A DNA stretch of 64,000 bases. Source: Nanobdellota archaeon (GTDB lineage Archaea; Nanobdellota; Nanobdellia; Pacearchaeales; GW2011-AR1). The stretch lies in NCBI GenBank assembly GCA_038044205.1, contig JBBTAN010000017.1, positions 104,452-168,451 on the forward strand. The letters are read 5' to 3'. The position numbers and the translations under genes are program-made. Of this stretch, positions 33,243 to 54,326 are shown in pieces. The stretch's first letter is position 1; each line of letters opens with the position of its first letter. The notes below the pieces were generated by a model. The model worked only from the letters and a program-made list of their open reading frames with translations. It was not told where the DNA came from and did not search any database.

Positions 33243-35099
33243 ATGGCGGATTTTTATAGTGATGAATTGTGCAAATCAAGAGTTAATTGTTTTAGCTGCA
33301 GGACTAATAAAAACTGGCGCAGATGGCTTTTGAGTCAAAAGAAAGTAGATGTTGAGGATTTCGAATGTATTCCATTAAAACTTGCTATGGATGCTAAATT
33401 AGAAGAAATGCCAGAACCAACGCAAAAGAAAGAAAATAATATAAAAAGGATGGAGGACGTAAGGAAGAATCTTCCTGCTTTGATTCAGGTATTAAAGCAG
33501 ACTCTTCCTTCGGAGTATGAGGGAGTAGTAGAGGATATAGAATTTATTACAAATCCTCATGGTGGTTCTGCTAAAGTTTGCGAATATATGAAAGTAACAA
33601 ATAAAAAAGTAAAAAGGGATGATTGCAAGTGTAAAACATTTCTAGTTGATTGCAAGCATCCAGATCCTGAAGTTCATAAAATAGTAGATGGAGTAGCTAT
33701 TACTATGACATGTAGAATTGATAAATGTAAATGGTTTACTCCTAAACCAGATGATGTAGTTGATGTAAAAGATTTCATTAAACCTGTCAATGTTGTTGCT
33801 CCAACTGTTTTCTCTCCTCCTCCTTTTGATACTTCTAAACCTGATATTGTTCCTACTGTTATTACTTCTTCTGTTCCTCCTGTTGTTATGTTGACAGAAA
33901 AGGAAGTAAAGAGTCCTAAAAATACAGATAAAATGGATTATGCTCGTATAAGGCATGGCAGAGAAAAAGATGTTGGTTTTTTAACTGGTAAATATATACA
34001 AACACCTCCTCTTTTATTTTCTCGTGATTGTCATAATATCTGGTTAGGAGATATGTATAGGGGAGGTTCAGCATTTTTAATTTTAAGTGGTCCTTCTTTT
34101 GCAAATGTAAATAAAGAATTATTACTTGGAAATAGTAAAAGACCAAGGATGTTGACGTTAGGAGTCAATAATAGTGTTAAAACATATCGTCCTGATATGT
34201 GGACTTGTGTGGATAGGCCAGATAGTTTTATTAAATCAATATGGGTAGATCCAGGAATAATGAAATTTACTCCTATATGTCATTCTGAAAAATTTATTTT
34301 TGATAGTGATAAATGGGAAATGACAAATATTAAAGTTGGAGATTGTCCTAATGTTTGGTATTATAGAAGAAATGAATATTTTAGACCAGAGAATTTTTTG
34401 TATGAAGATACAATAAATTGGGGTAATCATAGTAAGGCAGAAGAAGATGGTGGTGGTAGAAGTATAATGCTTGCTTCTATTCGTATATTATTTTATTTAG
34501 GAATAAGAAATATATTTTTATTAGGTTGTGATTTCAAAATGGATAGTAATTATACGTATCATTTTGAACAGAATCGTGCTGGAGGTAGTGTAAATGGAAA
34601 TACAAGCACTTATGAAAAGTTAAAAGATAGATTTAATAAAATATTGCCTATATTTAAACAGAATGGTTTAAATATATATAATTGTAATCCAGATTCAGGA
34701 TTGAAAGTATTTCCTTTTATTTCTGTAGAAGAAGCAGTTAAAATAGCGACAGTAGATTTCCCTGAAGATTTATCTAAAGAGAGAACGGAAGGTCTTTATG
34801 ATCGCGAGGCAAAAGAAAAAGAGAAAAAGAAAAAAGAAAGTGTAAGTCCTGTTGATGGAAAGGTTTACACTGAAGAAGAAAAAACAAATATAAAAAATAA
34901 ATTAGATGAAGCAAGAGGTAAGTTGAGGGTTAGTAAAGAATCAGTTGCTTCATATAAATTGACAGAGATGAAAGAAATTGATAAAGTAGAATGGAATAAA
35001 AAATTAGAGGAATTAGAAGCTGATGTATTGAAATATCGTGCTGAATTTAGGACCATAGAGGCCGAGAAAAATAAGATCTGGGGCATCGTTAAAAAATAG
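33243..35099 (+). CDS. large protein with DUF115/MptE-like (Maf-type glycosyltransferase-like) core and C-terminal coiled coil
   Basis: GGSAFLILSGPSF...PDMWTCVD...GGRSIMLASIRILFYLGIRNIFLLGCDF patterns; call from memory of family motifs. Confidence 0.45.
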   Translation: MADFYSDELCKSRVNCFSCRTNKNWRRWLLSQKKVDVEDFECIPLKLAMDAKLEEMPEPTQKKENNIKRMEDVRKNLPALIQVLKQTLPSEYEGVVEDIEFITNPHGGSAKVCEYMKVTNKKVKRDDCKCKTFLVDCKHPDPEVHKIVDGVAITMTCRIDKCKWFTPKPDDVVDVKDFIKPVNVVAPTVFSPPPFDTSKPDIVPTVITSSVPPVVMLTEKEVKSPKNTDKMDYARIRHGREKDVGFLTGKYIQTPPLLFSRDCHNIWLGDMYRGGSAFLILSGPSFANVNKELLLGNSKRPRMLTLGVNNSVKTYRPDMWTCVDRPDSFIKSIWVDPGIMKFTPICHSEKFIFDSDKWEMTNIKVGDCPNVWYYRRNEYFRPENFLYEDTINWGNHSKAEEDGGGRSIMLASIRILFYLGIRNIFLLGCDFKMDSNYTYHFEQNRAGGSVNGNTSTYEKLKDRFNKILPIFKQNGLNIYNCNPDSGLKVFPFISVEEAVKIATVDFPEDLSKERTEGLYDREAKEKEKKKKESVSPVDGKVYTEEEKTNIKNKLDEARGKLRVSKESVASYKLTEMKEIDKVEWNKKLEELEADVLKYRAEFRTIEAEKNKIWGIVKK

Positions 35100-35108
35100 G
35101 AGTTGTTT

Positions 35109-35816
35109 TTGTTCTCAATTAATTTAGAATTAAATGTAACATTAAAATGTAATTGCAAGTGTTTATATTGTAATAGATGTTGTAATTTATTTGATTACGA
35201 AGATTCAGATATGATTCCTGAACAAATAATTAAATTAGGTGAGCAATTAAAATCAAAAGAGATTTATATAAAGAAAATAAAAATAGTTGGCGGTGAGCCT
35301 TTATTAAATCCTAATATTATAGATATAGTTGAAGAATTAGATAAATTAAAAACAGAAGGTTTAATTGGATATATAAAGATAAATACAAATACTACAATTC
35401 CTGTTCCTGATGGACTTAGGAAATATAATATGAGATGGTTAGGTAGTAGTAAAAAGAAAAAGAAACATATTCCATTTCCTTATTCTCTTTTAGATTGTGG
35501 ATTAGAGCCAGAAAAATGTAATATTCCAAATGGTTGTGGTTTATCTTTGGATAAATGGGGATTTCTTCCTTGTTCTCCAGCCATACCATTAGTTCGCATA
35601 TTAAACAAACCAGAATTATATTCTAAAACAGTTCCATCTAATATTTATTTTATTAAAGAGTTATGTTCTCATTGTTCTCATGCTATGCCAGCAAATTGGA
35701 AAAAAGATAATATGTCTTTTGGATTGAAAGATAATAATATTTGTCCAACGAAGACTATGGTAGAAGGCATAAAAAAATATAATTCTGAATTTGATAAAAA
35801 ATTGGAGATATATTAA
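35109..35816 (+). CDS. small radical SAM protein (paralogous in architecture to 21426..22046)
   Basis: CNCKCLYC = CX3CX2C, VGGEPLL; TTG start 6 nt after AGGAG. Confidence 0.7.
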   Translation: MFSINLELNVTLKCNCKCLYCNRCCNLFDYEDSDMIPEQIIKLGEQLKSKEIYIKKIKIVGGEPLLNPNIIDIVEELDKLKTEGLIGYIKINTNTTIPVPDGLRKYNMRWLGSSKKKKKHIPFPYSLLDCGLEPEKCNIPNGCGLSLDKWGFLPCSPAIPLVRILNKPELYSKTVPSNIYFIKELCSHCSHAMPANWKKDNMSFGLKDNNICPTKTMVEGIKKYNSEFDKKLEIY

Positions 35817-36563
35817 ATGTCAGATATTGAAATTCATACTATGCTTTACGGATTTCAGAAGAGATTTTGGTGGCAATTATCAAGTTTAATTGAGCAGGAG
35901 AACGGTCCAAAGTTGTCTTATGTAATTAGTTTACATAATAAAGATCCTTGGTTTAGTTGGAATGAAAAAATAATAAATACATTTAGTAGATATATTTCTA
36001 TTAATTCTATTATTTGGGATGATGACATGTTTGGTATTAGGGGTCAGGTGAGAAATAAGAGTATGTTATCATGTAAATCTTCTTGGATAGTATTTAATGA
36101 TGCTGACATGATTTATCCTAAAGATTTTTTTAATAAATTTTGGGTAGGATTAGGTAGAATACCAGATGAGCATAGGGTAATAGGAACTGGAAGGAAGACA
36201 GTGTTGAAGGTAGAAGATGCCGATAAATTGATAGAATCAGAGAAATATGATTTGCCTATAAATAATTCTTTTAATAAATGTTCTAATCTTATTCTTAGAA
36301 ATATTACTGGCGCTTATGGAGTTGGATTTTTTCAATGCGTCAATGTAGAAAATTATAGAAAATATCAAGCAGAGAATGGTAGAGATGGGTCTTATGTTGG
36401 AGAATATAAAAGAGATTGGAGTATTTTGAGTGATAAGCCCCATACAAGAACAAATAGTGATAGGTGTTTTCGCATTAGGGCTGGAGGTGCAATTGCAATA
36501 CCTGATATTTTTGCTATTCATCTACAGCATTTTAGAGGACCAGCTAACGGGGTGCAACGATGA
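35817..36563 (+). CDS. putative GT-A fold glycosyltransferase
   Basis: IVFNDADMIYP (DxD); TAAATG coupling. Confidence 0.4.
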   Translation: MSDIEIHTMLYGFQKRFWWQLSSLIEQENGPKLSYVISLHNKDPWFSWNEKIINTFSRYISINSIIWDDDMFGIRGQVRNKSMLSCKSSWIVFNDADMIYPKDFFNKFWVGLGRIPDEHRVIGTGRKTVLKVEDADKLIESEKYDLPINNSFNKCSNLILRNITGAYGVGFFQCVNVENYRKYQAENGRDGSYVGEYKRDWSILSDKPHTRTNSDRCFRIRAGGAIAIPDIFAIHLQHFRGPANGVQR

Positions 36564-37180
36564 AATTATTAAAAGGGTGCCACAATTTATTAAATGAAGT
36601 AGTAAAAAATGATTTCTATAAAGTCAGAGTTTTCCGTCGTAGGGTTCCAGAGACTTTTGTTGATATTGGCGCTAATGTTGGCATGTTTTCCATAATGGTT
36701 AGATTTTTATTTCCTAATTCAAGAATTATTGCTATTGAACCTGACCCTAATAATTATGCTGCATTGGTGGATAATTGTTCTGGTCTTGAGATTGAGACGG
36801 TAAATGTAGCTATTGCCGATGGAAAGCCAGTGCAGATGATAGGAAGTCGTTCTACGTGTAAAAGAGTTGAATCGTCAGATATTGGGATTCCAAGTATAAT
36901 ATTTTCAGATTTAGTTAAGATGGTTAAATCTCCATTAAGTAAAACATATTTAAAATTTGATTGTGAAGGTGGAGAAAAATATTTTTTATCAGATCCAGTT
37001 AATGTATCTAAATTATGGGAATTTCAAGCTGTTGGTGCTGAATTGCATCCAGCATGGCTAACTCAAATACAATGGGATAGTTGGTCGGCTCTTTTGAAAC
37101 AGGAAGCTAGTAAATTTGGGTCAATTGATATAAAACTCGTTAAGAAAAATGCTGTTCTAATATATTTTCGGAGAAAATAA
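36560..37180 (+). CDS. FkbM-family methyltransferase
   Basis: FVDIGANVGMFS ... IIAIEPDPNNY; ATGA overlap. Confidence 0.6.
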   Translation: MKLLKGCHNLLNEVVKNDFYKVRVFRRRVPETFVDIGANVGMFSIMVRFLFPNSRIIAIEPDPNNYAALVDNCSGLEIETVNVAIADGKPVQMIGSRSTCKRVESSDIGIPSIIFSDLVKMVKSPLSKTYLKFDCEGGEKYFLSDPVNVSKLWEFQAVGAELHPAWLTQIQWDSWSALLKQEASKFGSIDIKLVKKNAVLIYFRRK

Positions 37181-37668
37181 TGAGTTGTTCAAAACATTTA
37201 AATAAATTTCCAAATGATATATTTATTGAAACTGGATCTTTAGTTGGAAAAGGTATAAAAAATGCTTTAAAGTATGGATTTAAAGAAATTCATTCTATAG
37301 AAATTTTAAAAACTAATTATGATATATGTGTTAAATTATTTAAAGATGATAAGAGAGTGAATTTATATTTAGGAGATAGTGCGGAAACTCTTCCTTATGT
37401 ATTAAAAAATATAAAAAATAAAGTAACTTTTTTACTTGATGCTCATGGTCCATGTTTTAAATGTCCTATATTAAAAGAATTAAAAATTATATTAGATCAT
37501 TCTAATTTAATAGGGGTGAAACATACAATAATAATAGATGATGCTAAATATTTTAATGGTAAGCGAGAAGATTTTGGATTTTTAAATATTGCCGATGTAA
37601 AAGAAATAGTTAATAAATATCCTTTATATATTTTTAATAATAATAAAAAATATATAACAATTCTATAA
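37180..37668 (+). CDS. putative class I SAM-dependent methyltransferase-like protein
   Basis: IETGS.VGKG...SIE...LGDS pattern; TAATG overlap. Confidence 0.35.
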   Translation: MSCSKHLNKFPNDIFIETGSLVGKGIKNALKYGFKEIHSIEILKTNYDICVKLFKDDKRVNLYLGDSAETLPYVLKNIKNKVTFLLDAHGPCFKCPILKELKIILDHSNLIGVKHTIIIDDAKYFNGKREDFGFLNIADVKEIVNKYPLYIFNNNKKYITIL

Positions 37669-37685
37669 TATATTGGAGTGATGAA

Positions 37686-39275
37686 ATGAGATCAAGAGGA
37701 GTATTATATTACAACATTGGTAGGAAATGCCTATCTCGTCTTGGAGTTTCAATTTTCAGTTTAAGAAAACATTACAGTGGACCTGTGACAGTTATATGGA
37801 GCGGGAAAGAAAGTGGAAATGAATGTAAAAAATTATTGAATTCTCCATTAGATATTAATTTAGTTGAAATGAAATCAGATGTATCTGAAGGTTTCCATAA
37901 AGCTTTTATGGATAAGACGTTAGTTCATACTGTCACTCCATACGATACAAGTATTTTTCTTGATACTGATACTTTAGTTGTTGGTAAAATTGATGAGTTG
38001 TTTGATTACGCTGAAGAATATGAATTTATATGTACTCAATTCTCGGATTGGGTAACTACTGGAAGAGCTATGGCCGGAAGAATACAGCAATTCAATGGAT
38101 TAGATCCACTTGCAGTAAAAGAAGCATTAAAACCAGGTCCAGGTCTAAATGTTGGTGTTTATTCCTTTATTAAAGAATCTAAGTTTATGGCTGATTGGAA
38201 TAAATTAACAATGCCAGGAAGAAATTTCAATCTTCCTGAAGAATCAGCATGTATGGTTTATAGGCATAGATATCCCCATAAAGTTGTTGACCAAAAATTC
38301 AATTGTTCTTGTAGATATAGTAATACTCATAATCCAGATATAAGAATTATACATTATCATGGAGATAAACATTGCCGAAATACAAATAATAAATTTATTT
38401 ATTCTGCTGATTTATGGATGAATCATTATGAAGAGATAATGAGCAATAAAATACCAGGTTTAGTTCAATTGGTTCAGGATAATAGTAATTATGATAAATT
38501 TTTAAAAAGATTAAAGAAACCAATTATAGAAGTTCCTAAAATAGAAATTCCTAAAGTTCCTGATTTTAAAACACCTGATATTACATTGGTTACTGCCGTT
38601 ACAGAAGAATATCTCCCTATATTAAAACTAACATATAAAACATGGGATCTGAAAAGTTGTTTAAAGAATGCTCCTATTCTTATTTTTTCTCATGGATTAT
38701 CCAGTAAACATGATTTCGATTTTCTAAAACCAAGAAATTATAGAATAGTTGATTGGGATATGCCTAAATATGATAGCCAAAGAGAATTAATGTTATCTTC
38801 TTTTGTATTAGGATCTGCTAAATATGTAGAGACTCCTTATTGGATGAAATTAGATTCAGATAGTTTTTTCCATAATGATAATCCATTATTTGAAAAAGAA
38901 GATTTCGATTATGATTTAGTAGCTCCTTCGTGGGGTGTATCAAGAACTGAATTTATTATTGCAATGGATAAATGGGCTGAAGTTCATTGTTTTTCTGGAG
39001 AACCATTTTTCAAAGATGGGATTCCTGATGTTGTAAAATATAAACATAATAGATTTATTTCTTATTTATGTTTGCACAGGTCAGAATTTGTCCGTACAAG
39101 TGCTGCAATGTCCCCAGGACGGCTTCCGATACCTAGTCATGACTCATACCTATGGTATCTTTTATATCGCTTTGGCGGTAAGTATAAAACAAAAAGAAGT
39201 CATAAGTTTAGTGTTGTGCAGAAGAGAGGTTTAAAAAACGTAAGAGAAACGATGATAAAATTAAAATTATTATAA
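37686..39275 (+). CDS. two-domain nucleotide-sugar glycosyltransferase (GT8-like N-domain)
   Basis: IFLDTDTLVVGKIDELF (DxD) and second MKLDSDSFF. Confidence 0.5.
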   Translation: MRSRGVLYYNIGRKCLSRLGVSIFSLRKHYSGPVTVIWSGKESGNECKKLLNSPLDINLVEMKSDVSEGFHKAFMDKTLVHTVTPYDTSIFLDTDTLVVGKIDELFDYAEEYEFICTQFSDWVTTGRAMAGRIQQFNGLDPLAVKEALKPGPGLNVGVYSFIKESKFMADWNKLTMPGRNFNLPEESACMVYRHRYPHKVVDQKFNCSCRYSNTHNPDIRIIHYHGDKHCRNTNNKFIYSADLWMNHYEEIMSNKIPGLVQLVQDNSNYDKFLKRLKKPIIEVPKIEIPKVPDFKTPDITLVTAVTEEYLPILKLTYKTWDLKSCLKNAPILIFSHGLSSKHDFDFLKPRNYRIVDWDMPKYDSQRELMLSSFVLGSAKYVETPYWMKLDSDSFFHNDNPLFEKEDFDYDLVAPSWGVSRTEFIIAMDKWAEVHCFSGEPFFKDGIPDVVKYKHNRFISYLCLHRSEFVRTSAAMSPGRLPIPSHDSYLWYLLYRFGGKYKTKRSHKFSVVQKRGLKNVRETMIKLKLL

Positions 39276-41222: not shown

Positions 41223-41732
41223 TTAGAAGAAAAGTCCAAAAGAAAAATGATTGCGGTGATTATAGTAGGAGTAGCGCATATAGACAGGTTCAGGTTGTAG
41301 ATAAACAGGTTGAATAACTACAGGGGCTGGTTGTACAATAAGTGAAGTGGGAGTAAGAACTGTTGGGACAGGAGTGGTTGCAGGAACAGGTGTGACGGTA
41401 GGTGCTGGAGTTGTAGGAGCAACCGCAGCGGCAGGAGTAGGTTGAACAACAATTGGATCAGGCTGTATAGTATAAACAATAACAGGAGTAGGAATAACCT
41501 CTACAACTGTCGCGGGTTCGTAATAATAAACTCCACCGATGATGTATGGCCTATAACGATAGGTTTGTCTATAACTATACTGATAAGCTGGTCTATAAGC
41601 AGGAGCAAACATTGGTCCGTGACGCATAGGAGCGAAACCTTGATGACCACCAGACGGCCTAAAACTTTGATGTCCAGCAAATAAAGAAGTAGACACAAGT
41701 AAACAAACAACAATTGCAAGTACTTGGCGCAT
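41223..41732 (-). CDS. secreted Pro/Tyr/Val-rich protein
   Basis: signal-peptide-like MRQVLAIVVCLLVSTSLFA; strong SD; higher G+C than flanks. Confidence 0.6.
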   Translation of the reverse strand: MRQVLAIVVCLLVSTSLFAGHQSFRPSGGHQGFAPMRHGPMFAPAYRPAYQYSYRQTYRYRPYIIGGVYYYEPATVVEVIPTPVIVYTIQPDPIVVQPTPAAAVAPTTPAPTVTPVPATTPVPTVLTPTSLIVQPAPVVIQPVYLQPEPVYMRYSYYNHRNHFSFGLFF

Positions 41733-41901: not shown

Positions 41902-43065
41902 ATGGGCGTAGGAATCGAATCAAATCCAATTTCCACAGCAGAGGAAGTGTCTTCCAATGCTGAGGAACCTCCCGGTAGTAGAAGATATTTTAATCATGTT
42001 AATAAAATAGACTGGGACGACTGGACGTGGCAGTTTAAGAACAGAATACGCACTTCTAATGAATTAGAAAAATATTTAGAATTGAGTATAGAAGAAAAAG
42101 AAGCATTCAATAAAGGTTGCAACCTTCCTTTTTCTATTACTCCCTATTATTTAAGCCTAATACCAAGGAATGATTTTAATAATCCTATTAGAAGGTGTAT
42201 GGTTCCAACAGTTTATGAATTTATTAAATCTTATGGAGAAGAGGAGGATCCTCTTCATGAAGAAAAACAAAGTCCAGTAGAAGGTTTAGTCCATAGGTAT
42301 CCTGATAGAGTTTTACTTATGGCATCTGATATTTGTTCTTGTAATTGTCGTTACTGTACACGGTCTCGTGTAGTTGGAACAAGTAAAATAAAAGAAAATG
42401 AGTCTAGGTTAAACAAAGCTTTTGAGTATATAAAATCTCATAAAGAAATAAGAGATGTTATTATTTCTGGTGGTGATCCTCTTTTATTAAAAGATAGTAA
42501 ATTAGAATGGATATTAAGTAATATAAGAAACATACAACATGTTGAAATTATTAGGATTGGAACGAAAGTTCCTGCTGTTTTGCCGCAGAGAATAAATAAA
42601 AATTTATTAAAGGTGTTAAAGAAGTATCATCCTTTATTTATGAGTATTCATTTTACTCATCCAGATGAATGTACTAAAGAAGTAAAAGAAGCATGTTGCA
42701 AGTTAGCTGATACAGGTATTCCGTTAGGTTCGCAGACAGTTTTATTAAAAGGAATTAATGATAATTTAGAATCAATAAAAGATTTGGTTCATAAGTTATT
42801 GATGATGAGGGTAAAACCTTATTATTTATATGCTTGCGATCCTATATTTGGTTCACACCATTTTAGGGCAGATATAAATAAAGGAATAGAAATCATTAGA
42901 GGATTGAGAGGATTTACAAGTGGTTATGCTATTCCTAACTTTGTTATTGATGCCCCAGGTGGAGGTGGAAAAATTCCTATTATGCCTGATTACGTAAAAG
43001 AAATAAATAAAAAATATATAGAAATGGAAAATTATCTAGGAAATCTATACAAATATTATATTTAA
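41902..43065 (+). CDS. KamA-family radical SAM aminomutase (lysine 2,3-aminomutase / EpmB-like)
   Basis: HRYPDRVLL, CSCNCRYCTRS, SGGDPLL, PYYLYACD, DAPGGGGKIP. Confidence 0.85.
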   Translation: MGVGIESNPISTAEEVSSNAEEPPGSRRYFNHVNKIDWDDWTWQFKNRIRTSNELEKYLELSIEEKEAFNKGCNLPFSITPYYLSLIPRNDFNNPIRRCMVPTVYEFIKSYGEEEDPLHEEKQSPVEGLVHRYPDRVLLMASDICSCNCRYCTRSRVVGTSKIKENESRLNKAFEYIKSHKEIRDVIISGGDPLLLKDSKLEWILSNIRNIQHVEIIRIGTKVPAVLPQRINKNLLKVLKKYHPLFMSIHFTHPDECTKEVKEACCKLADTGIPLGSQTVLLKGINDNLESIKDLVHKLLMMRVKPYYLYACDPIFGSHHFRADINKGIEIIRGLRGFTSGYAIPNFVIDAPGGGGKIPIMPDYVKEINKKYIEMENYLGNLYKYYI

Positions 43066-43667
43066 TTTTTTATTTTATTTAATATTTCAATTATATAATT
43101 AGCTGGCATATGGATTCCGACAATAGGTTTTTGTACAGTGACAAAACTATTTATTCCTATTACTTTATTATTACATAGCAGCGCGCCTCCCGACATCCCA
43201 TGTTCTAATTTGCAGTCTGTTTTTATATAAGAAGAATAATTATCAGTAACAGATAAAAATATTCCAATAGTTTTGCACGGCATAACAACATAACCTGACT
43301 TATAGCCAAAGCCTACAGCTAAACACTGTAGGTTTGGTCTTATGTTATCTTCTAATGGTAATCCGTATTTTAATTGATCGGAAAATATAATAATAAAATC
43401 ATGGGTTTTTGACTTAATTGTATATTTAGGTATTATTCTAATACTACCTTGCCAAATAAAAATATCTTTTGCTGTATTTTCCATTAGATGTTTAGCTGAT
43501 AAAATAAATACTTTATCTTTATATGAAGCTATTACTCCAGTTCCATTGTATAGAACAGTTTTATTGTTTACTACATTTTCTACTTGGACATTTACAATAA
43601 AATCTTTTATATCTCCAGCAAAAGAAAAATCAGATAATAATAAAATAATAAATATTATTTTTTTCAT
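43062..43667 (-). CDS. secreted trypsin-like serine protease
   Basis: N-terminal signal peptide; SAKHL (His), HDFIII (Asp), GMSGGAL (Ser). Confidence 0.65.
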   Translation of the reverse strand: MKKIIFIILLLSDFSFAGDIKDFIVNVQVENVVNNKTVLYNGTGVIASYKDKVFILSAKHLMENTAKDIFIWQGSIRIIPKYTIKSKTHDFIIIFSDQLKYGLPLEDNIRPNLQCLAVGFGYKSGYVVMPCKTIGIFLSVTDNYSSYIKTDCKLEHGMSGGALLCNNKVIGINSFVTVQKPIVGIHMPANYIIEILNKIKN

Positions 43668-43668
43668 T

Positions 43669-44112
43669 TTATATTCCTTCAGTTATTTGAGCCATAGCTT
43701 CTTTTAAATTTCCATCTTTATCAAAAGATGCATCAAATATAATTATCTTACCATTATCTTCTTTTGTTAATACTATATTTCCATCTGCCAATTGAATACT
43801 TATATTATTTAATTTTTGTGATAATTCATATAAAAATTCGAAAGTGAAATTAGTATTTGGTGATAAATCAGAATCAAAAGCAACACTTAGAAAACATGCT
43901 ATACCTTTAGAATTAGTTATTCTCAATGTTTTATTTTTATAATTTTTAAAAAAATCAATAATAGGTTTATATATATGAGTTTCTTTACCTAATAAAGAAT
44001 TTTCTGGTATTTTTTCTTTTATTGAGGTATCATTGAACCAATTGTCAAGTTTTTCCTGACTACTGAAAAAATAATTCAATTCTCCATCTGTTAAATGATA
44101 TTCTTGCTCCAT
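43669..44112 (-). CDS. hypothetical protein
   Basis: SD-proximal ATG; 1-nt gap to protease gene. Confidence 0.55.
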   Translation of the reverse strand: MEQEYHLTDGELNYFFSSQEKLDNWFNDTSIKEKIPENSLLGKETHIYKPIIDFFKNYKNKTLRITNSKGIACFLSVAFDSDLSPNTNFTFEFLYELSQKLNNISIQLADGNIVLTKEDNGKIIIFDASFDKDGNLKEAMAQITEGI

Positions 44113-44230
44113 AAAATAATCCTTTAATATCAACCATTTATATATTATTTACTTATTCTTTTTATTCCTTTAGAAGGATAAAAAACAGATAAGAAGAATA
44201 TGATAATAACATTCCGCATGGAGGTTTTCT

Positions 44231-44998
44231 ATGGGAATCAACAAAGAGGTATATAAAAATAGGTTTGGAATGGAGTTTGAATGTTCTACCCCTTTTGATG
44301 AATTAAAAGGACTTGTTCATGATGCTTGTATTAAATATTATGGTGAGAATTCTGTTTTAATTAAAAAAACATCTTATTCTTCCAATAAAAACTATAATAA
44401 ATGGCATTTAAAAATAGATGGAACTACAGAATCTGAGTTATGTACTCCCATATCATCATTTAATGATATAGGTAAAATTAAAAAAGTAATAAAAGAATTA
44501 GGCCAAAATATAAAAATAACAAACAATGATTCTACGCACCTCCATTTAGAAATAGGAGATATTGATCCCAGATTATTGGTAATTGGTTGGCTTATTATAG
44601 AAAAAGGAATTATTCGATGTTTTCCAAAACATAGAAGAAAGAATAATTTTTGTGAGAAGTTAGGCGATGGTAAAAAACACAATATCGGTCTTTTATTTGA
44701 AAAAGCATATGGGATAGCAGAAAATCATCATTCTATTTTATCTTTGTATCATTACGACCAAAGAAAAACAATAGAATTTAGAGTATGTGAAGGAACTAAT
44801 AATTCGGAAACAATTGAAAATTGGATTAAATTTTGTTATTTATTTTTGAATTATTGTAAGAATATGGATGTAATAGAAGTTCTTAAAAAAGATATTGGTA
44901 ATAAAAATATATTTTTTGCTATAGAGGAGTTGAAACTAACAGGAAAAATAAAGAAATGGTTAGAAGGGAGATACGAACTATTCAACAAAGAAGATTGA
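44231..44998 (+). CDS. putative glutamine-synthetase-like amidoligase (Amidoligase_2-type)
   Basis: FGMEFE, WHLKIDGT..SELCTP, STHLHLEIG, IEFRVCEGT patterns recalled from the family. Confidence 0.45.
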   Translation: MGINKEVYKNRFGMEFECSTPFDELKGLVHDACIKYYGENSVLIKKTSYSSNKNYNKWHLKIDGTTESELCTPISSFNDIGKIKKVIKELGQNIKITNNDSTHLHLEIGDIDPRLLVIGWLIIEKGIIRCFPKHRRKNNFCEKLGDGKKHNIGLLFEKAYGIAENHHSILSLYHYDQRKTIEFRVCEGTNNSETIENWIKFCYLFLNYCKNMDVIEVLKKDIGNKNIFFAIEELKLTGKIKKWLEGRYELFNKED

Positions 44999-45025
44999 TT
45001 TTTTCTATTTTTTCAGGAGAAAAAA

Positions 45026-45406
45026 TTGAGTCTAAAAATTAAAGTTTATGATGAGGTAAATGAATCAACTAACATCTACGAGGAGAACATTGATGATGAA
45101 GAACTGGAAATGGAAAAAGAAATATATGAAGGAAATGATTTTGATCATTATATAAGAGATGTAAAATTAAAAGTAAATTATCTTCCAAACTATAAAGAGG
45201 ACGATTCCCATTATATTTCTTTATTTTATATTAATTTAACTAAAAATGGCAGATGCCCGAACTGGTTGAAAGGTGTAGATGAAAATAATGTTTGGGTTGA
45301 AGTGAAAAGGACAGGTGTTGAAAATAAGATTATAGATAAGGAAAAGAAAAATATAATTATTAATATTTTATCATGGATTGGAGAAAAATTAAGTGCAAAG
45401 AAATAA
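45026..45406 (+). CDS. hypothetical acidic protein (TTG start)
   Basis: 126 aa, GGAGA SD. Confidence 0.5.
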   Translation: MSLKIKVYDEVNESTNIYEENIDDEELEMEKEIYEGNDFDHYIRDVKLKVNYLPNYKEDDSHYISLFYINLTKNGRCPNWLKGVDENNVWVEVKRTGVENKIIDKEKKNIIINILSWIGEKLSAKK

Positions 45407-45674
45407 AATAAATATTAAATTTAATATTTCTTCTGGAGGTTGTGCTGGATGTACTGGCTGTGGTTATATCTGGGATACTCCTTTTTCTTGTTTAGGATGT
45501 GGTCCACCTTTATATCCAACAAGTGTAGGATGCGCTGGATGTGGCGTAGCTGGTTGTTTTGCGTGTGCTGGATGTAATGATTGTGGAACAGATTTACCTC
45601 CTACGGCTGGTCAATCAGGATGCAATACTTGTAGAGCATGTGCTGGTTGTAATATTTGTTCAGTACCTCCATAG
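45393..45674 (+). CDS. Cys/Gly-rich peptide with chained CxxC (CAGC) motifs (GTG start)
   Basis: 93 aa, ~22 Cys; GCAGCTGCG, GCAGCGVAGCFACAGCNDCG, CNTCRACAGCNIC. Confidence 0.5.
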   Translation: MQRNKINIKFNISSGGCAGCTGCGYIWDTPFSCLGCGPPLYPTSVGCAGCGVAGCFACAGCNDCGTDLPPTAGQSGCNTCRACAGCNICSVPP

Positions 45675-45717
45675 AAGAAAAATTAAATAAATAATTGAAT
45701 ACAATATAGGAGATTGT

Positions 45718-45957
45718 ATGTTTGAGGAACATAATTTAGAAAAGAAAAAACATGGTAATAGAATTAATTTTTTAATTAAAAAGAAAAAGAAAGCAAAAGA
45801 GATATATAAGGATTGGCCGAAGTTTTATAAAGCAGCCAATAATTTAAAAATTTGCTCTTGTTCGATGTGTGGTAATTTTAGAAAAAATAGAAAAGGAAAA
45901 GATAAATTTACTATCCAGGAAATTAAACAGATAGAAAAAGAAAAAATAGAGGATTAA
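45718..45957 (+). CDS. small basic protein with CSCSMCG motif
   Basis: 79 aa, strong SD. Confidence 0.55.
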   Translation: MFEEHNLEKKKHGNRINFLIKKKKKAKEIYKDWPKFYKAANNLKICSCSMCGNFRKNRKGKDKFTIQEIKQIEKEKIED

Positions 45958-50486: not shown

Positions 50487-53400
50487 TTGGCAACGGTTAA
50501 AATTGTAAATCCAGATGGTAGTGGAGATTATACTACATTAGCCCTCTGGGAAGACTGGGCTGATGGTCAGGGCACGACTGATCAATGGGCAGAATGTGAG
50601 ATAGACTCAGTTGACAATACAAGTCTTGGTCGCGTTGCTGTGGCTGGGTGGTCCGCCACATCAGTAGGGGCCTACCCGCGCATATATACTTCGCTCGCGC
50701 ATAGACACAACGGTCAGAGTGGCAGTGCTGGTGCGTGGATATTAGGATCCGCCAGCACGACATGTATAGCCATAACTGTAAATTATGTCAGGGTCGAGGG
50801 AATCAGATGCGTCATCACTGGCCTGTCCGGCAAGGGCGTCACCGTTGCCAATATGGGTTCATGCTTTATTGATAGCGTACTCGTTGACTACACAGGAACC
50901 ACTCCAACCTCAAGCACTTTTGCGGTATTTTGCGACTCTAACACCACGTCCAATTACACTGTGCAAAACTGTCTGTATTACGGAAGCGGGATATCTCAGG
51001 GGCAAGCGATCTTTATTCGCGCGCTGAGTGGGTCGAACGTCACCGCCAGCATCTATAACAACTCTGGAGTTGGTTGGGAATACGGGTTCTACTTTAACGA
51101 GGTAGCCGGTGGAACGCTGGCAGTCACGTCCACCAATAACATTGCGACGGCGGCTACCACACAGTGCTACATAACTGCTGGAGACCTCGTAATCACGCAG
51201 ACCTACTGTATCTCCAGCGACACGTCAGCCGACAATTGGTTTGGAGCAGGTAATCAAATTAGTGTAGCTGGAAATACTATATTTACAAATGCTACTACTA
51301 ATTTTAATTTAGTATCTGGCTGTGTCGCTGTTGACGCTGGTGCAACGATTGCTTCTTTTGATTGGGATGCCGTACATTTAGACGCAGATAATTGGCGTCC
51401 ACAAGGCGCTTCGTGGGATATAGGTGCGCTTGAGTTACAGGATAATAATTCAAGTAGTTCTAGTTCATCATCTTCATCAGAATCCCCGTCTTCTCAAAGT
51501 TCTCAATCTTCTCAAAGTTCTAGTTCATCATCTTCATCGTTTAAAGATCAAAGTTCGTCAAGTAGTTCTTCGAGTGAATCTGATGAACCATCATCAAGCA
51601 GTTCGTCTTCTGAAAGTGAATCAAGTATAAGTTCTCAATCATCGTCTTCTACATCATTAGGTGAATCTAGTTCATCCTCATTTAGTTCTAGTAGTTCTTT
51701 AGGATTTAGTTCATCAAGTTCCAGTTCGTCAGAATTAATAAATTCGAGTAGTTCATTGTCTAGTTCCAGTTCTTTATCTAGTTCTTTATCTGAAAGTTCG
51801 AGTAGTTCATTATCTAGTTCAAGTTTATCATCTGAATCTTCATCTAGTTCAACATCTTTAGGAGAATCTTCATCTAGTTCCTCTTCGTCAGAGTTAGTTA
51901 AATCTTCGAGTTCAGAGTCTAGCTCTTCTAGTTTATCTAGCTCATCATCTGAATCTAGTTCATCATCAGAATCAAGTAGTAGTGAAAGTTCAAATTCTTC
52001 TTCATCTGAATTGATAAATTCGAGCAGTTCACTTTCAAGTTCAAGTTCTTTGTCTAGTTCATCATCTGAAAGTTCAAGTAGTTCTTTGTCAAGTTCAAGT
52101 TCTTCATCAGAATTAATAAATTCATCTAGTTCTTTATCTAGTTTATCAAGTTTAAGCTCTAGTTCGTCATCCGAATCAAGTTCTTCTAGCGAATCTAGTT
52201 CAAGTTCATTAGGATTTAGTTCTTCTTCATCGGAATCATCAAGTAGTTCTTCATCTATCTCTTCCTTGTCTAGTGAATCTAGTTCTAGTTCAACTTCGTT
52301 AGGTGAGTCTTCATCTAGCTCAAGTTCAGAATCTTCTCCTAGTTCATCATCAACCTCGCTTGGGGAGTCTTCATCAAGTTCGTCCAGTTCTACATCATTA
52401 GGTGAGTCATCATCTAGTTCAACCTCTCTTGGTGAATCTTCATCTAGTTTTTCATCATTATCATCATCTAGTTCTTTATCATCTGAAATAGCAAAATCTT
52501 CAAGTTCGGAATCAAGTTCAAGTTCATCATTATCAAGTGAATTAATAAAATCAAGTAGTTCTTTGTCAAGTTTAAGTTCTTTATCAAGTTCATCTTCAGA
52601 AAGTTCTTTAAGTTCGGAATCGAGTTCAAGTTCATCATTATCAAGTGAATTAATAAATTCAAGTAGTTCATTATCTAGTTCATCAAGTGAATCTAGTTCT
52701 AGCTCAACATCGTTAGGTGAGTCAAGTTCATCTTCTACATCATTAGGGGAATCGAGTTCTAGTTCTTCTTCATCAGAATTGATAAACTCTAGTAGTTCTT
52801 TATCAAGTAGTAGCTCATCAAGTGAATCATCGTCCAGTTCAACTTCATTAGGAGAGTCTAGTTCATCTTCTTCCAGTGAATCTTCATCTAGTTCTTCTTC
52901 ATTGGGGTCTAGTTCTAGTTCAGGTTCTAGTTTATCATCTGAAAGTTCAAGTAGTTCTTTGTCAAGTTCAAGTTCATCATCTGAATTAGTAAATTCTTCT
53001 AGTTCTTTATCTAGTTCTTCTAGTGAGTCTTCATCTAGTTCTACTTCGTTAGGGGAGACTTCATCTAGTTCCAGTTCAGAATCTTCTTCTAGTTCATCCT
53101 CAACCTCGCTTGGTGAATCATCGTCAAGTTCGTCTTCATCAACATCATTAGGAGAATCGTCATCAAGCTCATCTAGTGAATCTTCTTCTAGTTCAAATTC
53201 ATCGGAATTAATAAATTCATCAAGTTCAGAATCTAGTTCTAGTTCTTCATTAAGTTCTTTATCCAGTTCAAGTTCTAGTTCTAAATTAATAAATTCGAGT
53301 AGTTCTTTTTCAAGTGAATCTAGTTCTTCTTCATTAGGATTTAGTTCAAGTTCGTCATCTAGTTCGTTGTCAGAATCTAGTTTATCCAGTGAATCATCTT

Positions 53401-54326
53401 CGAGTTCTACATCGTTAGGAGAATCTTCATCAAGTTCTTCTTCTTTATCTTCTGAAAGTTCAAGTAGTTCTTTATCCAGTTCTAGTTCATCTGAATTAGT
53501 AAATTCAAGTAGTTCTTTATCTAGTTCTAGTTCTTTATCTAGTTTATCATCCGAAAGTTCTTTATCTAGTTCGAGTTCTTCCAGTGAGTCAAGTTCTAGT
53601 TCAACATCTTTAGGAGAGTCTTCATCTAGTTCAGAATCTTCTTCCAGTTCATCCTCAACCTCGCTTGGAGAGTCTTCGTCAAGTTCCAGTTCTTCTTCGT
53701 CAACATCATTAGGTGAATCTTCATCCAGTTCATTATCTTCTGAATTAATAAATTCATCTAGCTCGGAATCAAGTGATAGTTCAGAATCCAGTTCATCATC
53801 TGAAAGTTCAAGTAGTTCGCTGTCCAGTTCTTCTTCATCATCAGAATTAATAAATTCATCTAGTTCAGAATCAAGTTCTTCTAGTTCAACATCGTTAGGT
53901 GAATCAAGTTCAAGCTCATCTAGCGAGTCATCTTCTAGTTCTACTTCGTTAGGTGAATCTTCATCTAGTTCTACATCATTAGAAGAATCAAGTTCTAGTT
54001 CTGAATCTTCATCTAGCTCAACCTCATTAGGGGAATCTAGTTCTAGTTCTTCGTCATCTGAATTGATTAATTCAAGTAGTTCTTTATCTAGTTCTAGTTC
54101 TTCCTCAAGTTCAATATCTGGAAGTTCTGGAAGTCCCTCCTCAAGTTCTAGTTCCTCGTCAGAATTAATAAATTCATCAAGTTCTTTATCTAGTTTATCA
54201 AGTTTAAGTTCTTTATCATCTGAATCTAGTTCATCATCAAGCTCTAGTTCACTATCCGGATATGAATCGAGTTCTTCTAGTTCATCTTCATTTTTTGAAT
54301 ATATATTTATGGTAGTTAATTGTTAA
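50487..54326 (+). CDS. giant beta-helix (pectate-lyase-fold-like) head plus ~960-aa serine-rich repeat protein (TTG start)
   Basis: N-terminal ~315 aa paralogous to 55376 gene, ends ...DADNWRPQGASWDIGALE; then STSLGESSSSS / SELINSSSSLSS repeats. Confidence 0.75.
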   Translation: MATVKIVNPDGSGDYTTLALWEDWADGQGTTDQWAECEIDSVDNTSLGRVAVAGWSATSVGAYPRIYTSLAHRHNGQSGSAGAWILGSASTTCIAITVNYVRVEGIRCVITGLSGKGVTVANMGSCFIDSVLVDYTGTTPTSSTFAVFCDSNTTSNYTVQNCLYYGSGISQGQAIFIRALSGSNVTASIYNNSGVGWEYGFYFNEVAGGTLAVTSTNNIATAATTQCYITAGDLVITQTYCISSDTSADNWFGAGNQISVAGNTIFTNATTNFNLVSGCVAVDAGATIASFDWDAVHLDADNWRPQGASWDIGALELQDNNSSSSSSSSSSESPSSQSSQSSQSSSSSSSSFKDQSSSSSSSSESDEPSSSSSSSESESSISSQSSSSTSLGESSSSSFSSSSSLGFSSSSSSSSELINSSSSLSSSSSLSSSLSESSSSSLSSSSLSSESSSSSTSLGESSSSSSSSELVKSSSSESSSSSLSSSSSESSSSSESSSSESSNSSSSELINSSSSLSSSSSLSSSSSESSSSSLSSSSSSSELINSSSSLSSLSSLSSSSSSESSSSSESSSSSLGFSSSSSESSSSSSSISSLSSESSSSSTSLGESSSSSSSESSPSSSSTSLGESSSSSSSSTSLGESSSSSTSLGESSSSFSSLSSSSSLSSEIAKSSSSESSSSSSLSSELIKSSSSLSSLSSLSSSSSESSLSSESSSSSSLSSELINSSSSLSSSSSESSSSSTSLGESSSSSTSLGESSSSSSSSELINSSSSLSSSSSSSESSSSSTSLGESSSSSSSESSSSSSSLGSSSSSGSSLSSESSSSSLSSSSSSSELVNSSSSLSSSSSESSSSSTSLGETSSSSSSESSSSSSSTSLGESSSSSSSSTSLGESSSSSSSESSSSSNSSELINSSSSESSSSSSLSSLSSSSSSSKLINSSSSFSSESSSSSLGFSSSSSSSSLSESSLSSESSSSSTSLGESSSSSSSLSSESSSSSLSSSSSSELVNSSSSLSSSSSLSSLSSESSLSSSSSSSESSSSSTSLGESSSSSESSSSSSSTSLGESSSSSSSSSSTSLGESSSSSLSSELINSSSSESSDSSESSSSSESSSSSLSSSSSSSELINSSSSESSSSSSTSLGESSSSSSSESSSSSTSLGESSSSSTSLEESSSSSESSSSSTSLGESSSSSSSSELINSSSSLSSSSSSSSSISGSSGSPSSSSSSSSELINSSSSLSSLSSLSSLSSESSSSSSSSSLSGYESSSSSSSSFFEYIFMVVNC
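51438..54290 (+). repeat. coding serine-rich low-complexity repeat region
   Basis: degenerate TC(A/T)/AGT-rich repeats; antisense frames give E/L/D-rich artefact ORFs. Confidence 0.85.

What the first reader, a model, noticed from the sequence alone, without database searches (positions are those of the whole stretch)
41902..45957. KamA-family aminomutase + secreted protease + GS-like amidoligase + Cys-rich peptide: candidate beta-amino-acid ligation / peptide-modification system
Within 4 kb lie a clear lysine-2,3-aminomutase-family radical SAM enzyme and a signal-peptide-bearing trypsin-like protease with a tightly linked 147-aa partner. The same stretch holds a protein with the motif pattern of the glutamine-synthetase-like amidoligase family, an acidic 126-aa protein, a 93-aa peptide with ~22 Cys and a basic CxCxxC protein. 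In bacteria KamA-type EpmB makes beta-lysine, which a dedicated ligase attaches to EF-P. Here an unrelated amidoligase could attach an aminomutase product to a peptide or protein, possibly the adjacent Cys-rich or acidic ORFs. I know of no described system with this gene combination, but the linkage may be coincidental.
Basis: inference. Interest (0 to 1): 0.7.

Follow-up and report, generated by a model that had tools for sequence, protein, structure and literature searches.

The report
Unlinked aminomutase and amidoligase, huge phage
A 500-kb groundwater phage carries a real lysine 2,3-aminomutase gene close to a real glutamine-synthetase-like amidoligase gene, but the two never occur together in any related phage or bacterium, so they are most likely separate accessory genes and not a new beta-lysine ligation system.

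Summary
The family calls hold:
- a KamA/lysine-2,3-aminomutase radical SAM enzyme with every lysine-, PLP- and cluster-binding residue intact;
- an exported HtrA/trypsin-like serine protease with a translationally coupled orphan 147-aa partner;
- a minimal GS-fold amidoligase (Pfam PF12224; Foldseek hits to YbdK, GS and PafA);
- small acidic, Cys-rich (16 Cys, not ~22) and basic ORFs.

The window is part of a 499,814-bp huge-phage contig from Hainich groundwater.

None of 79 distinct phage or viral-contig KamA loci and none of 80 bacterial KamA loci has an Amidoligase_2 gene. None of 61 amidoligase loci has a KamA, protease or any of the small ORFs. KamA and the amidoligase are on the same strand but are separated by an oppositely oriented two-gene unit. 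The Cys-rich ORF's only homologue is a paralogue elsewhere in the same genome, between two giant structural-type genes.

One point favours the idea. The closest bacterial KamAs sit in KamA–Ddl-like ATP-grasp–GNAT operons, so this clade is normally ligase-coupled.

Most likely this is a chance juxtaposition of stand-alone accessory genes (~0.7). A coupling unique to this phage remains possible (~0.12).

The parts
41902..43065 (+). KamA-family radical SAM / PLP lysine 2,3-aminomutase, 387 aa. It is effectively stand-alone, flanked on both sides by minus-strand genes.
   Evidence: Pfam LAM_C and Radical_SAM. NCBIfam TIGR00238 338.5 bits (above 199.2); lys_2_3_AblA 458.4 bits (below 525.4); EpmB 247.6 bits (below 369.3). 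PDB 2A5H E=3.7e-128, with C145/C149/C152, R154, D313, D350 and K357 aligned to C125/C129/C132, R134, D293, D330 and K337.
43062..43667 (-). Exported HtrA/DegS-like trypsin-fold serine protease, 201 aa, without a PDZ domain. Its 3' end overlaps the KamA 3' end by 4 nt (convergent genes).
   Evidence: Pfam Trypsin 5.3e-06. PDB DegS/DegP hits at about 1e-4 with His, Asp and Ser aligned. Triad H60/D90/S159. The signal peptide is called by inspection. No close relative in IMG/VR.
43669..44112 (-). Orphan acidic 147-aa protein (154 aa from the TTG at 44133), directly upstream of the protease in the same minus-strand unit.
   Evidence: No Pfam, PHROG or NCBIfam hit. The only match among 5.8 billion proteins is itself. 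No IMG/VR relative. The AF2 single-sequence model has pLDDT 55 and is unusable.
44231..44998 (+). Minimal GS-fold carboxylate-amine ligase (Amidoligase_2), 255 aa. It is the first gene of a long plus-strand run.
   Evidence: PF12224 6.4e-11. phrog_2443 'amidoligase enzyme' 2.5e-13. AF2 pLDDT 80.5, pTM 0.84. Foldseek top hits are YbdK, glutamine synthetase, PafA, Dop and glutamate-cysteine ligase, probability 0.96-1.0. Invariant FGxExE, HxH, R and ExR motifs across homologues.
45026..45406 (+). Orphan acidic 126-aa protein (pI 4.9).
   Evidence: No family hit. No homologue in any of the 61 amidoligase loci.
45393..45674 (+). Cys/Gly-rich 93-aa protein with 16 Cys in CxxC(xxC) runs and a GTG start. 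It is one of two paralogues in this phage genome.
   Evidence: Only open frame; GC3 0.10; codon usage like other genes. SD GGAG 9 nt upstream of the start. The only homologue among 1.84 billion representatives is P0007, 87 aa, E=1e-08, encoded on the same 499,814-bp contig between 3,550-aa and 4,418-aa genes. The N-terminal MQRxKIxIKxNISSGG is conserved.
45718..45957 (+). Basic 79-aa protein (pI 9.8) with a CSCSMC motif.
   Evidence: ORF list. Only a weak phrog_4499 hit at E=0.005. Composition.

Best explanation
The stretch is a mosaic accessory region of a ~500-kb groundwater phage. It holds several independent genes, not one system.

(1) KamA is a stand-alone lysine 2,3-aminomutase that converts L-lysine to beta-lysine in the infected cell. 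The family and residues are shown; the activity is inferred. It belongs to a recurrent set of solitary KamA genes in huge phages. These genes fall among a bacterial KamA clade that normally heads a KamA, Ddl-like ATP-grasp (x2), GNAT operon. My inference is that the phage copy acts as an auxiliary metabolic gene. It would boost the first step of a host beta-lysine pathway, so host enzymes and not phage enzymes would use the product.

(2) The minus-strand pair encodes an orphan cytoplasmic protein and an exported HtrA-like protease that acts in the envelope.

(3) The amidoligase belongs to a clade of short (~255-275 aa) solo phage Amidoligase_2 enzymes. By fold analogy with GS, GCL, YbdK and PafA, it probably activates a carboxylate (probably a glutamate-type one) with ATP and joins it to an amine on an unknown target. 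It needs no KamA in any other genome.

(4) The Cys-rich protein belongs to a genome-specific two-member family. Its other copy lies between two giant fn3/Kelch genes, which points to a virion- or fibre-associated or metal-binding role.
For: - Source and nature of the element: (499,814-bp contig), tRNAs, collagen-like fibre genes.
- Phage KamA loci: 14 loci share no other window gene and have no Amidoligase_2 by HMM.
- IMG/VR KamA loci: 75 loci (1.25 Mb) have no Amidoligase_2, one Ddl-like protein and no PurD-like ATP-grasp. No neighbour family is present in more than 13 of them.
- Bacterial KamA loci: none of 80 has an Amidoligase_2.
- Amidoligase loci: 61 loci (524 kb of flanks; 23 with at least 3 kb on both sides) have no KamA, protease or small-ORF homologue. 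Their neighbours differ from locus to locus.
- Genome-level result: the complete KamA-bearing phages LR756500, LR756501 and LR756503 are not among the amidoligase tblastn hits, and the amidoligase-bearing LR756511 lacks KamA.
- Gene order and strands.
- Ligase-coupled bacterial clade.
- Paralogue context of the Cys-rich ORF.
Against: - The two genes lie only 1.2 kb apart, and a carboxylate-amine ligase is exactly the partner class that the bacterial KamA clade has (60 of 80 loci).
- Only ±10 kb was examined around most relatives, and many metagenomic contigs are short.
- The rest of the 500-kb genome could not be read.
- No host is known, so the idea that a host pathway uses the beta-lysine is untested.
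- No biochemical data exist for any of these proteins.
Confidence: 0.7

Rival explanations
1. Coupling unique to this phage. KamA makes beta-lysine, and the GS-like amidoligase, as a non-homologous replacement for the Ddl-like ATP-grasp ligases of the bacterial operon, ligates it to a small molecule, a glycan or a protein. This is essentially the first reader's idea.
For: - The genes are 1.2 kb apart.
- The closest bacterial KamAs are followed on the same strand by one or two Ddl-like ATP-grasp ligases in 60 of 80 loci and by a GNAT in 40 of 80.
- The KamAs of Pseudomonas putida and Vibrio jumbo phages sit in a conserved block with a 694-aa PurD-like ATP-grasp protein.
- GS-fold ligases accept amine nucleophiles, as shown by the fold match to GS, GCL and PafA.
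- A glycan-modification island and collagen-like fibre genes lie just upstream and could supply targets.
Against: - There is no co-occurrence in about 220 loci surveyed from both sides.
- Phage KamAs are almost always solitary: 1 of 75 viral loci has any Ddl-like ligase.
- The amidoligase clade works without KamA everywhere else.
- The two genes are separated by an opposite-strand unit, whereas all bacterial and jumbo-phage KamA-ligase pairs are contiguous and co-directional.
- No candidate substrate ORF is conserved.
Confidence: 0.12
2. KamA serves EF-P modification. The phage would supply (R)-beta-lysine to the host EpmA so that host EF-P is beta-lysylated and phage proteins are translated efficiently.
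For: KamA-family EpmB does this in bacteria (established knowledge; E. coli epmB-efp-epmA shown). Huge phages are known for translation-related genes, and this window has 5 tRNAs. Solitary phage KamA genes imply that a host enzyme uses the product.
Against: - The protein scores far better against LAM/AblA (458 bits) than against the EpmB equivalog (247.6 bits, cut-off 369.3).
- It falls among bacterial KamAs of the Ddl-like/GNAT operon type, well apart from the E. coli EpmB used as outgroup.
- No EF-P or EpmA-like gene appears among strong Pfam hits in the window.
- The listed tblastn hits for EpmA (30 of 34 records shown) and EF-P (all 17) include none of the KamA-bearing complete phage genomes.
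Confidence: 0.07
3. RiPP-like cassette. The 93-aa ORF would be a precursor peptide with a conserved leader ending in Gly-Gly and a Cys-rich core. The neighbouring amidoligase and radical SAM enzyme would modify it, and the protease would cleave it.
For: The two paralogues share a near-identical 16-residue N-terminus ending in SSGG, followed by a more variable Cys/Gly-rich region. A protease, a ligase and a radical SAM enzyme lie within 3.5 kb.
Against: - The paralogue sits between two giant structural-type genes with no modifying enzyme, protease or transporter within ±10 kb.
- KamA has the complete free-lysine and PLP binding site of an amino-acid mutase, not a peptide-modifying rSAM/SPASM architecture.
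- The protease is an exported HtrA-like enzyme, not a C39 or leader peptidase.
- No homologues of the peptide exist next to any other amidoligase.
Confidence: 0.04

Closest known systems
Clostridium subterminale lysine 2,3-aminomutase (KamA, PDB 2A5H) / archaeal-bacterial AblA
   Same: It aligns over 355 residues at E=3.7e-128. The CxxxCxxC cluster motif, Arg134, Asp293, Asp330 and the PLP lysine Lys337 are all conserved. The best NCBIfam model is lys_2_3_AblA.
   Different: It falls below the AblA equivalog cut-off (458 against 525 bits). The zinc-site Cys268 is Asn, and the C-terminal ~50 residues with the Cys375/377/380 cluster are missing. The gene is phage-encoded and solitary: there is no AblB acetyltransferase and no lysine-fermentation genes.
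Bacterial KamA, Ddl-like ATP-grasp (x2), RimI-like GNAT operon (Desulfobacterota, Planctomycetota, Bacteroidota and others; I found no description of it in the searchable literature)
   Same: These KamAs are the closest cellular relatives, at up to 61% identity, and intermix with phage KamAs in a star-like NJ tree. They provide the precedent that this KamA clade feeds carboxylate-amine ligases.
   Different: The phage window and 74 of 75 viral KamA loci lack the Ddl-like ligases, and no clear GNAT turned up in any of them. The nearby ligase in the window has an unrelated fold and lies in a different transcription unit.
EpmB (YjeK) - EpmA (PoxA/GenX) - EF-P beta-lysylation
   Same: It shares the same enzyme superfamily and the same chemistry (lysine to beta-lysine), with the product handed to a dedicated ligase.
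   Different: The EpmB equivalog score is not reached. No efp or epmA is nearby, and neither turns up among the listed hits for KamA-bearing phage genomes. The ligase fold differs: class II aaRS-like in EpmA, GS-like here.
Phage Amidoligase_2 cassettes of LUZ24-like Pseudomonas phages and others (Amidoligase_2 + GAT-II amidotransferase + COOH-NH2_lig + ATP-grasp; predicted by Iyer et al. 2009, as recalled; gene table in PMC3890496)
   Same: The Pfam family is the same (PF12224), and the PHROG label 'amidoligase enzyme' matches. The family is widespread in cultured phages, with 150 records.
   Different: The window protein is a shorter solo form (255 aa against ~385 aa). None of the canonical partners (GAT-II, AIG2/GGCT, COOH-NH2_lig, ATP-grasp) is detected in the window. 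Its clade (32-43% identity) has variable neighbours.
GS-fold carboxylate-amine ligases: YbdK, glutamine synthetase, glutamate-cysteine ligase, PafA/Dop
   Same: These are the top Foldseek matches to the predicted structure, with probability 0.96-1.0. ATP-dependent acyl-phosphate chemistry is inferred from the fold.
   Different: Sequence identity is only 8-14% and TM-scores are 0.40-0.46. The protein is a much smaller core without the N-terminal or oligomerisation elements. The substrate is unknown, and no Pup-like partner ending in Gly-Gly-Glu/Gln lies nearby.
HtrA-family periplasmic proteases (DegS, DegP, DegQ)
   Same: The protease domain aligns with the catalytic His, Asp and Ser conserved, and the protein has an N-terminal export signal.
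   Different: It has no PDZ domain and is only 201 aa. It is phage-encoded and paired with an orphan 147-aa protein.

Membership tests
KamA family / lysine 2,3-aminomutase | Radical SAM CxxxCxxC [4Fe-4S] motif | tested here: met
   C145, C149 and C152 align to C125, C129 and C132 of 2A5H. The motif is conserved in all 12 other phage homologues aligned with it.
KamA family / lysine 2,3-aminomutase | PLP-binding lysine (Lys337 of C. subterminale LAM) | tested here: met
   K357 in GGGGK aligns to K337.
KamA family / lysine 2,3-aminomutase | Lysine-specific substrate contacts: Arg134 (carboxylate) and Asp293/Asp330 (epsilon-ammonium). From recalled knowledge, these are Lys/Asn in glutamate 2,3-aminomutase. 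| tested here: met
   R154, D313 and D350 are conserved.
KamA family / lysine 2,3-aminomutase | Curated model thresholds | tested here: inconclusive
   The subfamily model TIGR00238 is passed (338.5 above 199.2). The equivalog lys_2_3_AblA is not reached (458.4 below 525.4).
KamA family / lysine 2,3-aminomutase | Zn site (Cys268 plus C-terminal Cys375/377/380) and the C-terminal tetramerisation region of clostridial LAM | tested here: not met
   Cys268 aligns to Asn, and the protein ends near LAM residue ~366.
KamA family / lysine 2,3-aminomutase | Catalytic conversion of L-lysine to beta-lysine | not testable with these tools
   This needs anaerobic reconstitution and LC-MS.
EpmB / EF-P beta-lysylation pathway | EpmB equivalog score; epmA and efp present as partners | tested here: not met
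   TIGR03821 scores 247.6, below 369.3. No EF-P or LysRS-like Pfam hit appears among strong hits in the window. Neither shows up among the listed tblastn hits for KamA-bearing complete phages.
Amidoligase_2 (PF12224), GS-like amidoligases | Pfam gathering threshold | tested here: met
   43.0 bits against a cut-off of 22, E=6.4e-11.
Amidoligase_2 (PF12224), GS-like amidoligases | Glutamine-synthetase-like fold | tested here: met
   AF2 model with pLDDT 80.5. Foldseek finds YbdK, GS, PafA, Dop and GCL at probability 0.96-1.0.
Amidoligase_2 (PF12224), GS-like amidoligases | Conserved acidic, His and Arg active-site motifs | tested here: met
   E15, E17, E69, H103, H105, R135, R178, E182, R184 and E187 are invariant in alignments of homologues at 24-40% identity. 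Their catalytic role is inferred from the family, not tested.
Amidoligase_2 (PF12224), GS-like amidoligases | Canonical gene partners (GAT-II-like peptidase/amidotransferase, AIG2/GGCT, COOH-NH2_lig, ATP-grasp) | tested here: not met
   None was found among the Pfam hits shown for window ORFs (the bulk sweep lists only 25 of 33 families). They are present in LUZ24-like phages.
   No co-occurrence in 14 and 75 phage or viral KamA loci (79 distinct), in 80 bacterial KamA loci or in 61 amidoligase loci.
   KamA (+) and the amidoligase (+) are separated by two minus-strand genes. KamA converges on the protease with a 4-nt overlap.
   This needs biochemistry and mass spectrometry.
HtrA / S1 trypsin-fold serine proteases | His-Asp-Ser triad in a trypsin fold; PDZ domain(s) for HtrA proper | tested here: inconclusive
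   The triad H60/D90/S159 is aligned and Pfam Trypsin is above its cut-off. There is no PDZ domain, and all HtrA equivalog scores are far below their cut-offs.
RiPP precursor with double-glycine leader | Conserved leader, adjacent maturase(s), leader peptidase or transporter, with the association conserved | tested here: not met
   A leader-like N-terminus is conserved between the two paralogues. The paralogue has no maturase, peptidase or transporter neighbours, and no C39 or SPASM family was found among the Pfam hits shown.

The most novel reading that the evidence does not exclude
In this one phage lineage, a captured bacterial-type KamA has been paired with a solo GS-fold amidoligase that stands in for the Ddl-like ATP-grasp ligases of the ancestral bacterial operon. 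The pair would form a phage-encoded beta-lysyl ligation pathway that decorates a phage or host target, such as a collagen-like fibre, a glycan from the adjacent glycosylation island, or a small neighbouring protein. This would be a convergent, previously undescribed beta-aminoacylation system.
Probability: 0.12. Interest if true: 0.65.

Novelty: new member of a known kind. Interest (0 to 1): 0.25.

Why it matters
As a system it most likely does not exist, so the finding should not be carried forward as a new beta-lysine ligation pathway.

Three things of modest value remain:
- Lysine 2,3-aminomutase is a recurrent solitary gene of huge phages (75 IMG/VR contigs, several of 250-640 kb). It appears to be drawn from a bacterial clade that heads an apparently undescribed KamA, 2x Ddl-like ATP-grasp, GNAT operon. 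This points to an unrecognised beta-lysine-derived metabolite that phages may manipulate.
- A clade of minimal solo Amidoligase_2 enzymes is phage-specific. It is absent from 185,579 species-representative genomes under the search patterns used.
- A genome-specific Cys-rich small-protein family has a conserved N-terminus.

Each of these can be tested cheaply in vitro.

Tried and rejected
- DNA thymidine-hypermodification isomerase idea for KamA: dropped. The protein keeps the full free-lysine binding site, the Pfam and PHROG hits shown for the window include no family I would link to hydroxymethyl-dU modification, and the hypermodification paper never mentions an aminomutase.
- Shared neighbours between the window and relatives: none in BLASTP of all window ORFs (50 aa or longer) against every fetched locus.
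- The divergent ~150-aa + ~200-aa pair upstream of several amidoligases looked like a conserved arrangement by size. The proteins are unrelated: it is an HNH pair in L025/L026 and orphans elsewhere.
- Close relatives of the protease and the 147-aa ORF in IMG/VR: none. The 147-aa protein is an orphan among 5.8 billion proteins, and its AF2 model was too poor for a fold search.
- Rfam and promoter/terminator scans of 39-48.5 kb: nothing informative.
- Literature searches for phage KamA, for KamA with ATP-grasp, and in the huge-phage paper: no description found. Iyer et al. 2009 was not retrievable, so what I say about it is from memory.
- Possible shared upstream motif (ATATGAT...ATAACAT) before KamA and the amidoligase: not pursued. 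It is AT-rich and not distinguishable from chance.
- The first genome-contig scan with alignment A1 failed for lack of conserved columns. The scan with A4 found no cellular relative of the amidoligase clade.

Full report
**What the window is.**
- The window has about 30% G+C, carries five tRNA genes and encodes collagen-like tail-fibre proteins.
- An exact-protein look-up places it on a 499,814-bp contig from Hainich groundwater well H43, 0.1 µm fraction (ENA ERZ1292626).
- The best GenBank matches to its KamA are the 462-kb and 735-kb 'uncultured phage' genomes LR756500 and LR756501.
- It is therefore part of a huge phage genome.

**Check of the observation.**
- *KamA (41902-43065, +).* It matches Pfam LAM_C and Radical_SAM. 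It passes the NCBIfam KamA-family model: TIGR00238 scores 338.5 bits against a cut-off of 199.2. Its best equivalog is lysine 2,3-aminomutase AblA at 458 bits, below the 525 cut-off. EpmB scores only 247.6 against 369.3.
- *KamA residues.* Against C. subterminale LAM (PDB 2A5H, E=3.7e-128), the three cluster cysteines, Arg134, Asp293, Asp330 and the PLP lysine are all conserved. The zinc-site Cys268 and the C-terminal Cys cluster are missing. The same seven residues are conserved in all 12 other phage homologues aligned with it. I read it as a genuine lysine-type 2,3-aminomutase.
- *Protease (43062-43667, -).* It passes Pfam Trypsin. It aligns to DegS/DegP with the triad H60/D90/S159. It has an obvious N-terminal export signal (by inspection) and no PDZ domain.
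- *147-aa ORF.* It ends one base before the protease start.
- *Amidoligase (44231-44998, +).* It matches PF12224 Amidoligase_2 (E=6.4e-11) and phrog_2443 'amidoligase enzyme'. An AlphaFold2 model (pLDDT 80.5, pTM 0.84) finds YbdK, glutamine synthetase, PafA, Dop and glutamate-cysteine ligase as its top PDB matches, with probability 0.96-1.0.
- *Small ORFs.* They fit the description, with one correction: the 93-aa ORF has 16 cysteines, not about 22. It is likely a real gene. It is the only open frame, its GC3 of 0.10 matches neighbouring genes, and a Shine-Dalgarno GGAG lies 9 nt before its GTG start.

**Test of the proposed system from the KamA side.**
- I fetched 14 phage KamA loci at 35-57% identity with ±10 kb of flank. 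None shares any other window gene by BLASTP. None has an Amidoligase_2 by an HMM built from 26 family members.
- A wider scan gave 75 IMG/VR loci (1.25 Mb), several on contigs of 250-640 kb. They contain no Amidoligase_2, a single Ddl-like ligase and no PurD-like ATP-grasp.
- No neighbour family occurs in more than 13 of these 75 loci. The commonest neighbours include GIY-YIG homing-endonuclease-like genes. Phage KamA is thus a solitary, mobile-looking gene.
- None of the 80 closest bacterial KamA loci has an Amidoligase_2.

**Test of the proposed system from the amidoligase side.**
- I examined 61 loci at 24-43% identity. They give 524 kb of flanking DNA, and 23 have at least 3 kb on both sides.
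- None contains a KamA, the protease, or the 147-, 126-, 93- or 79-aa ORFs.
- Their neighbours vary. A more distant subfamily has its own conserved context of a RecA gene, an HNH-type protein and small unknown proteins.
- Among complete genomes, the KamA-bearing phages are not amidoligase hits, and the amidoligase-bearing LR756511 is not a KamA hit.
- The clade was not found in 185,579 species-representative genomes.

**Anatomy also argues against a unit.**
- KamA lies between minus-strand genes and converges on the protease gene with a 4-nt overlap. The amidoligase starts a separate plus-strand run.
- The protease is exported, whereas KamA and the amidoligase need cytoplasmic SAM, reductant and ATP.
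- Exhaustive HMMER found only one homologue of the Cys-rich ORF. It is a paralogue on the same contig about 300 kb away, wedged between a 3,550-aa and a 4,418-aa fn3/Kelch gene. No ligase, radical SAM enzyme or protease lies within ±10 kb of it.
- The two copies share a near-identical 16-residue N-terminus, MQRxKIxIKxNISSGG.

- The closest cellular KamAs reach 61% identity and come from Desulfobacterota, Planctomycetota, Bacteroidota and others.
- In 60 of 80 of these loci, one or two D-Ala-D-Ala-ligase-like ATP-grasp genes lie on the same strand next to KamA, mostly just downstream. They score 146 bits on NF002378 against a cut-off of 243, so they are paralogues and not true Ddl. In 40 of 80 loci a RimI-like GNAT is present as well.
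- Phage and bacterial KamAs intermix in a star-like NJ tree without bootstraps.
- In Pseudomonas putida and Vibrio ~200-kb phages, KamA ends a conserved block that contains a 694-aa PurD-like ATP-grasp protein.
- The clade is therefore normally coupled to carboxylate-amine ligases, and a ligase of another fold 1.2 kb away is suggestive.
- Against that: phages almost always took KamA alone (74 of 75 viral loci), all genuine KamA-ligase pairs are contiguous and co-directional, and this amidoligase clade never needs KamA elsewhere.

**Most likely mechanism.**
- KamA acts on its own to raise beta-lysine in the infected cell. Host enzymes most plausibly consume the product, which is the logic of an auxiliary metabolic gene. 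This is inferred, not shown.
- An EF-P route is less likely. The EpmB score is low, and no efp or epmA appears in the window or among the listed hits for KamA-bearing phage genomes.
- By fold analogy, the amidoligase performs ATP-dependent ligation of a carboxylate to an amine on an unknown target. It lacks the GAT-II, GGCT, COOH-NH2_lig and ATP-grasp partners seen in LUZ24-like phages.
- The protease pair and the small ORFs are unrelated accessory or structural-region genes.

**Verdict.**
- The genes are real, and the family assignments are correct.
- The system is not supported and is probably a chance juxtaposition (about 0.7).
- A coupling unique to this phage is not excluded (about 0.12).
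- Each gene is a new member of a known family.
- Interest is low to moderate, mainly because of the side observations on solitary phage KamA genes and the bacterial KamA-Ddl-like-GNAT operon.

Noticed in passing
L086-L165 (e.g. L101 7746-11606; L165 7800-11515): The bacterial KamAs closest to the phage gene head a widely distributed four-gene operon: KamA, two Ddl-like ATP-grasp ligases, and a RimI-like GNAT. It is present in 60 of 80 loci across Desulfobacterota, Planctomycetota, Bacteroidota, Spirochaetota and Proteobacteria. I found no description of it in the searchable literature. It suggests a beta-lysine-containing dipeptide or acetylated metabolite.
   Followed up: partly
L006-L015, L166-L230 (IMG/VR): Lysine 2,3-aminomutase is a recurrent solitary gene on viral contigs. 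There are 75 such loci at 39-60% identity, and several contigs are 250-640 kb. It has no conserved neighbour and often has GIY-YIG homing-endonuclease-like genes beside it.
   Followed up: partly
L001 669-9176 (Pseudomonas phage vB_PpuM-Peetri); L002 1001-9071 (Vibrio phage vB_VcorM_GR7B): In ~200-kb Pseudomonas putida and Vibrio phages, the KamA homologue ends a conserved block. The block holds a 694-aa protein with a PurD-like ATP-grasp domain and a ~380-aa unknown protein. In the Vibrio phage two QueC-like genes lie next to it. This is a better candidate for a phage beta-lysine ligation (or base-modification) pathway than the window.
   Followed up: partly
window 45393-45674 and L079 10001-10264 (same contig, ~300 kb away): A two-member, genome-specific family of Cys/Gly-rich small proteins (93 and 87 aa). 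They have a conserved N-terminus MQRxKIxIKxNISSGG and CxxC(xxC) runs. The second copy sits between genes of 3,550 and 4,418 aa with fn3/Kelch hits.
   Followed up: partly
window 33243-39275 (+), 58118-59254 (+): A glycan-modification island. It holds a Maf/MptE-like (sialyltransferase-like) 618-aa protein, a second radical SAM enzyme (35103-35816), an FkbM-type methyltransferase and a 529-aa putative glycosyltransferase. Elsewhere in the window there are GHMP kinase, cytidylyltransferase, HAD phosphatase and GT1 glycosyltransferase hits. The island lies next to collagen-like fibre genes, so the phage may glycosylate its fibres.
   Followed up: no
window 50487-54326 (+): A 1,279-aa protein. After roughly 320 N-terminal residues of ordinary composition it becomes a very long poly-serine/Ser-rich region (codon-position GC 0.22/0.70/0.21).
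   Followed up: no
window 30252-31808 (+): A 518-aa protein with 64 cysteines in repeated Cys- and His-rich motifs that look like zinc-ribbon or B-box repeats. No PHROG hit.
   Followed up: no
window 25685-26959 (-): An IS605-type OrfB/TnpB (Cas12f-like TNB domain) transposase-like gene inside the phage genome. Homologues sit directly downstream of the amidoligase in two unrelated metagenomic contigs (L036, L032).
   Followed up: no
window 41223-41732 (-): A 169-aa protein with a signal-peptide-like N-terminus and a Pro/Thr/Val/Tyr-rich low-complexity body, between the collagen-like fibre gene and KamA. It causes the local GC rise to ~0.5.
   Followed up: no
L005, L025, L026, L054-L057, L061, L066, L071, L074, L076: A more distant Amidoligase_2 subfamily (~310-370 aa) in huge phages has its own conserved neighbourhood. 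This comprises a ~160-aa divergent gene, three small downstream genes and a nearby RecA gene, plus an HNH-type protein in L025/L026. None has a Pfam hit except RecA.
   Followed up: partly
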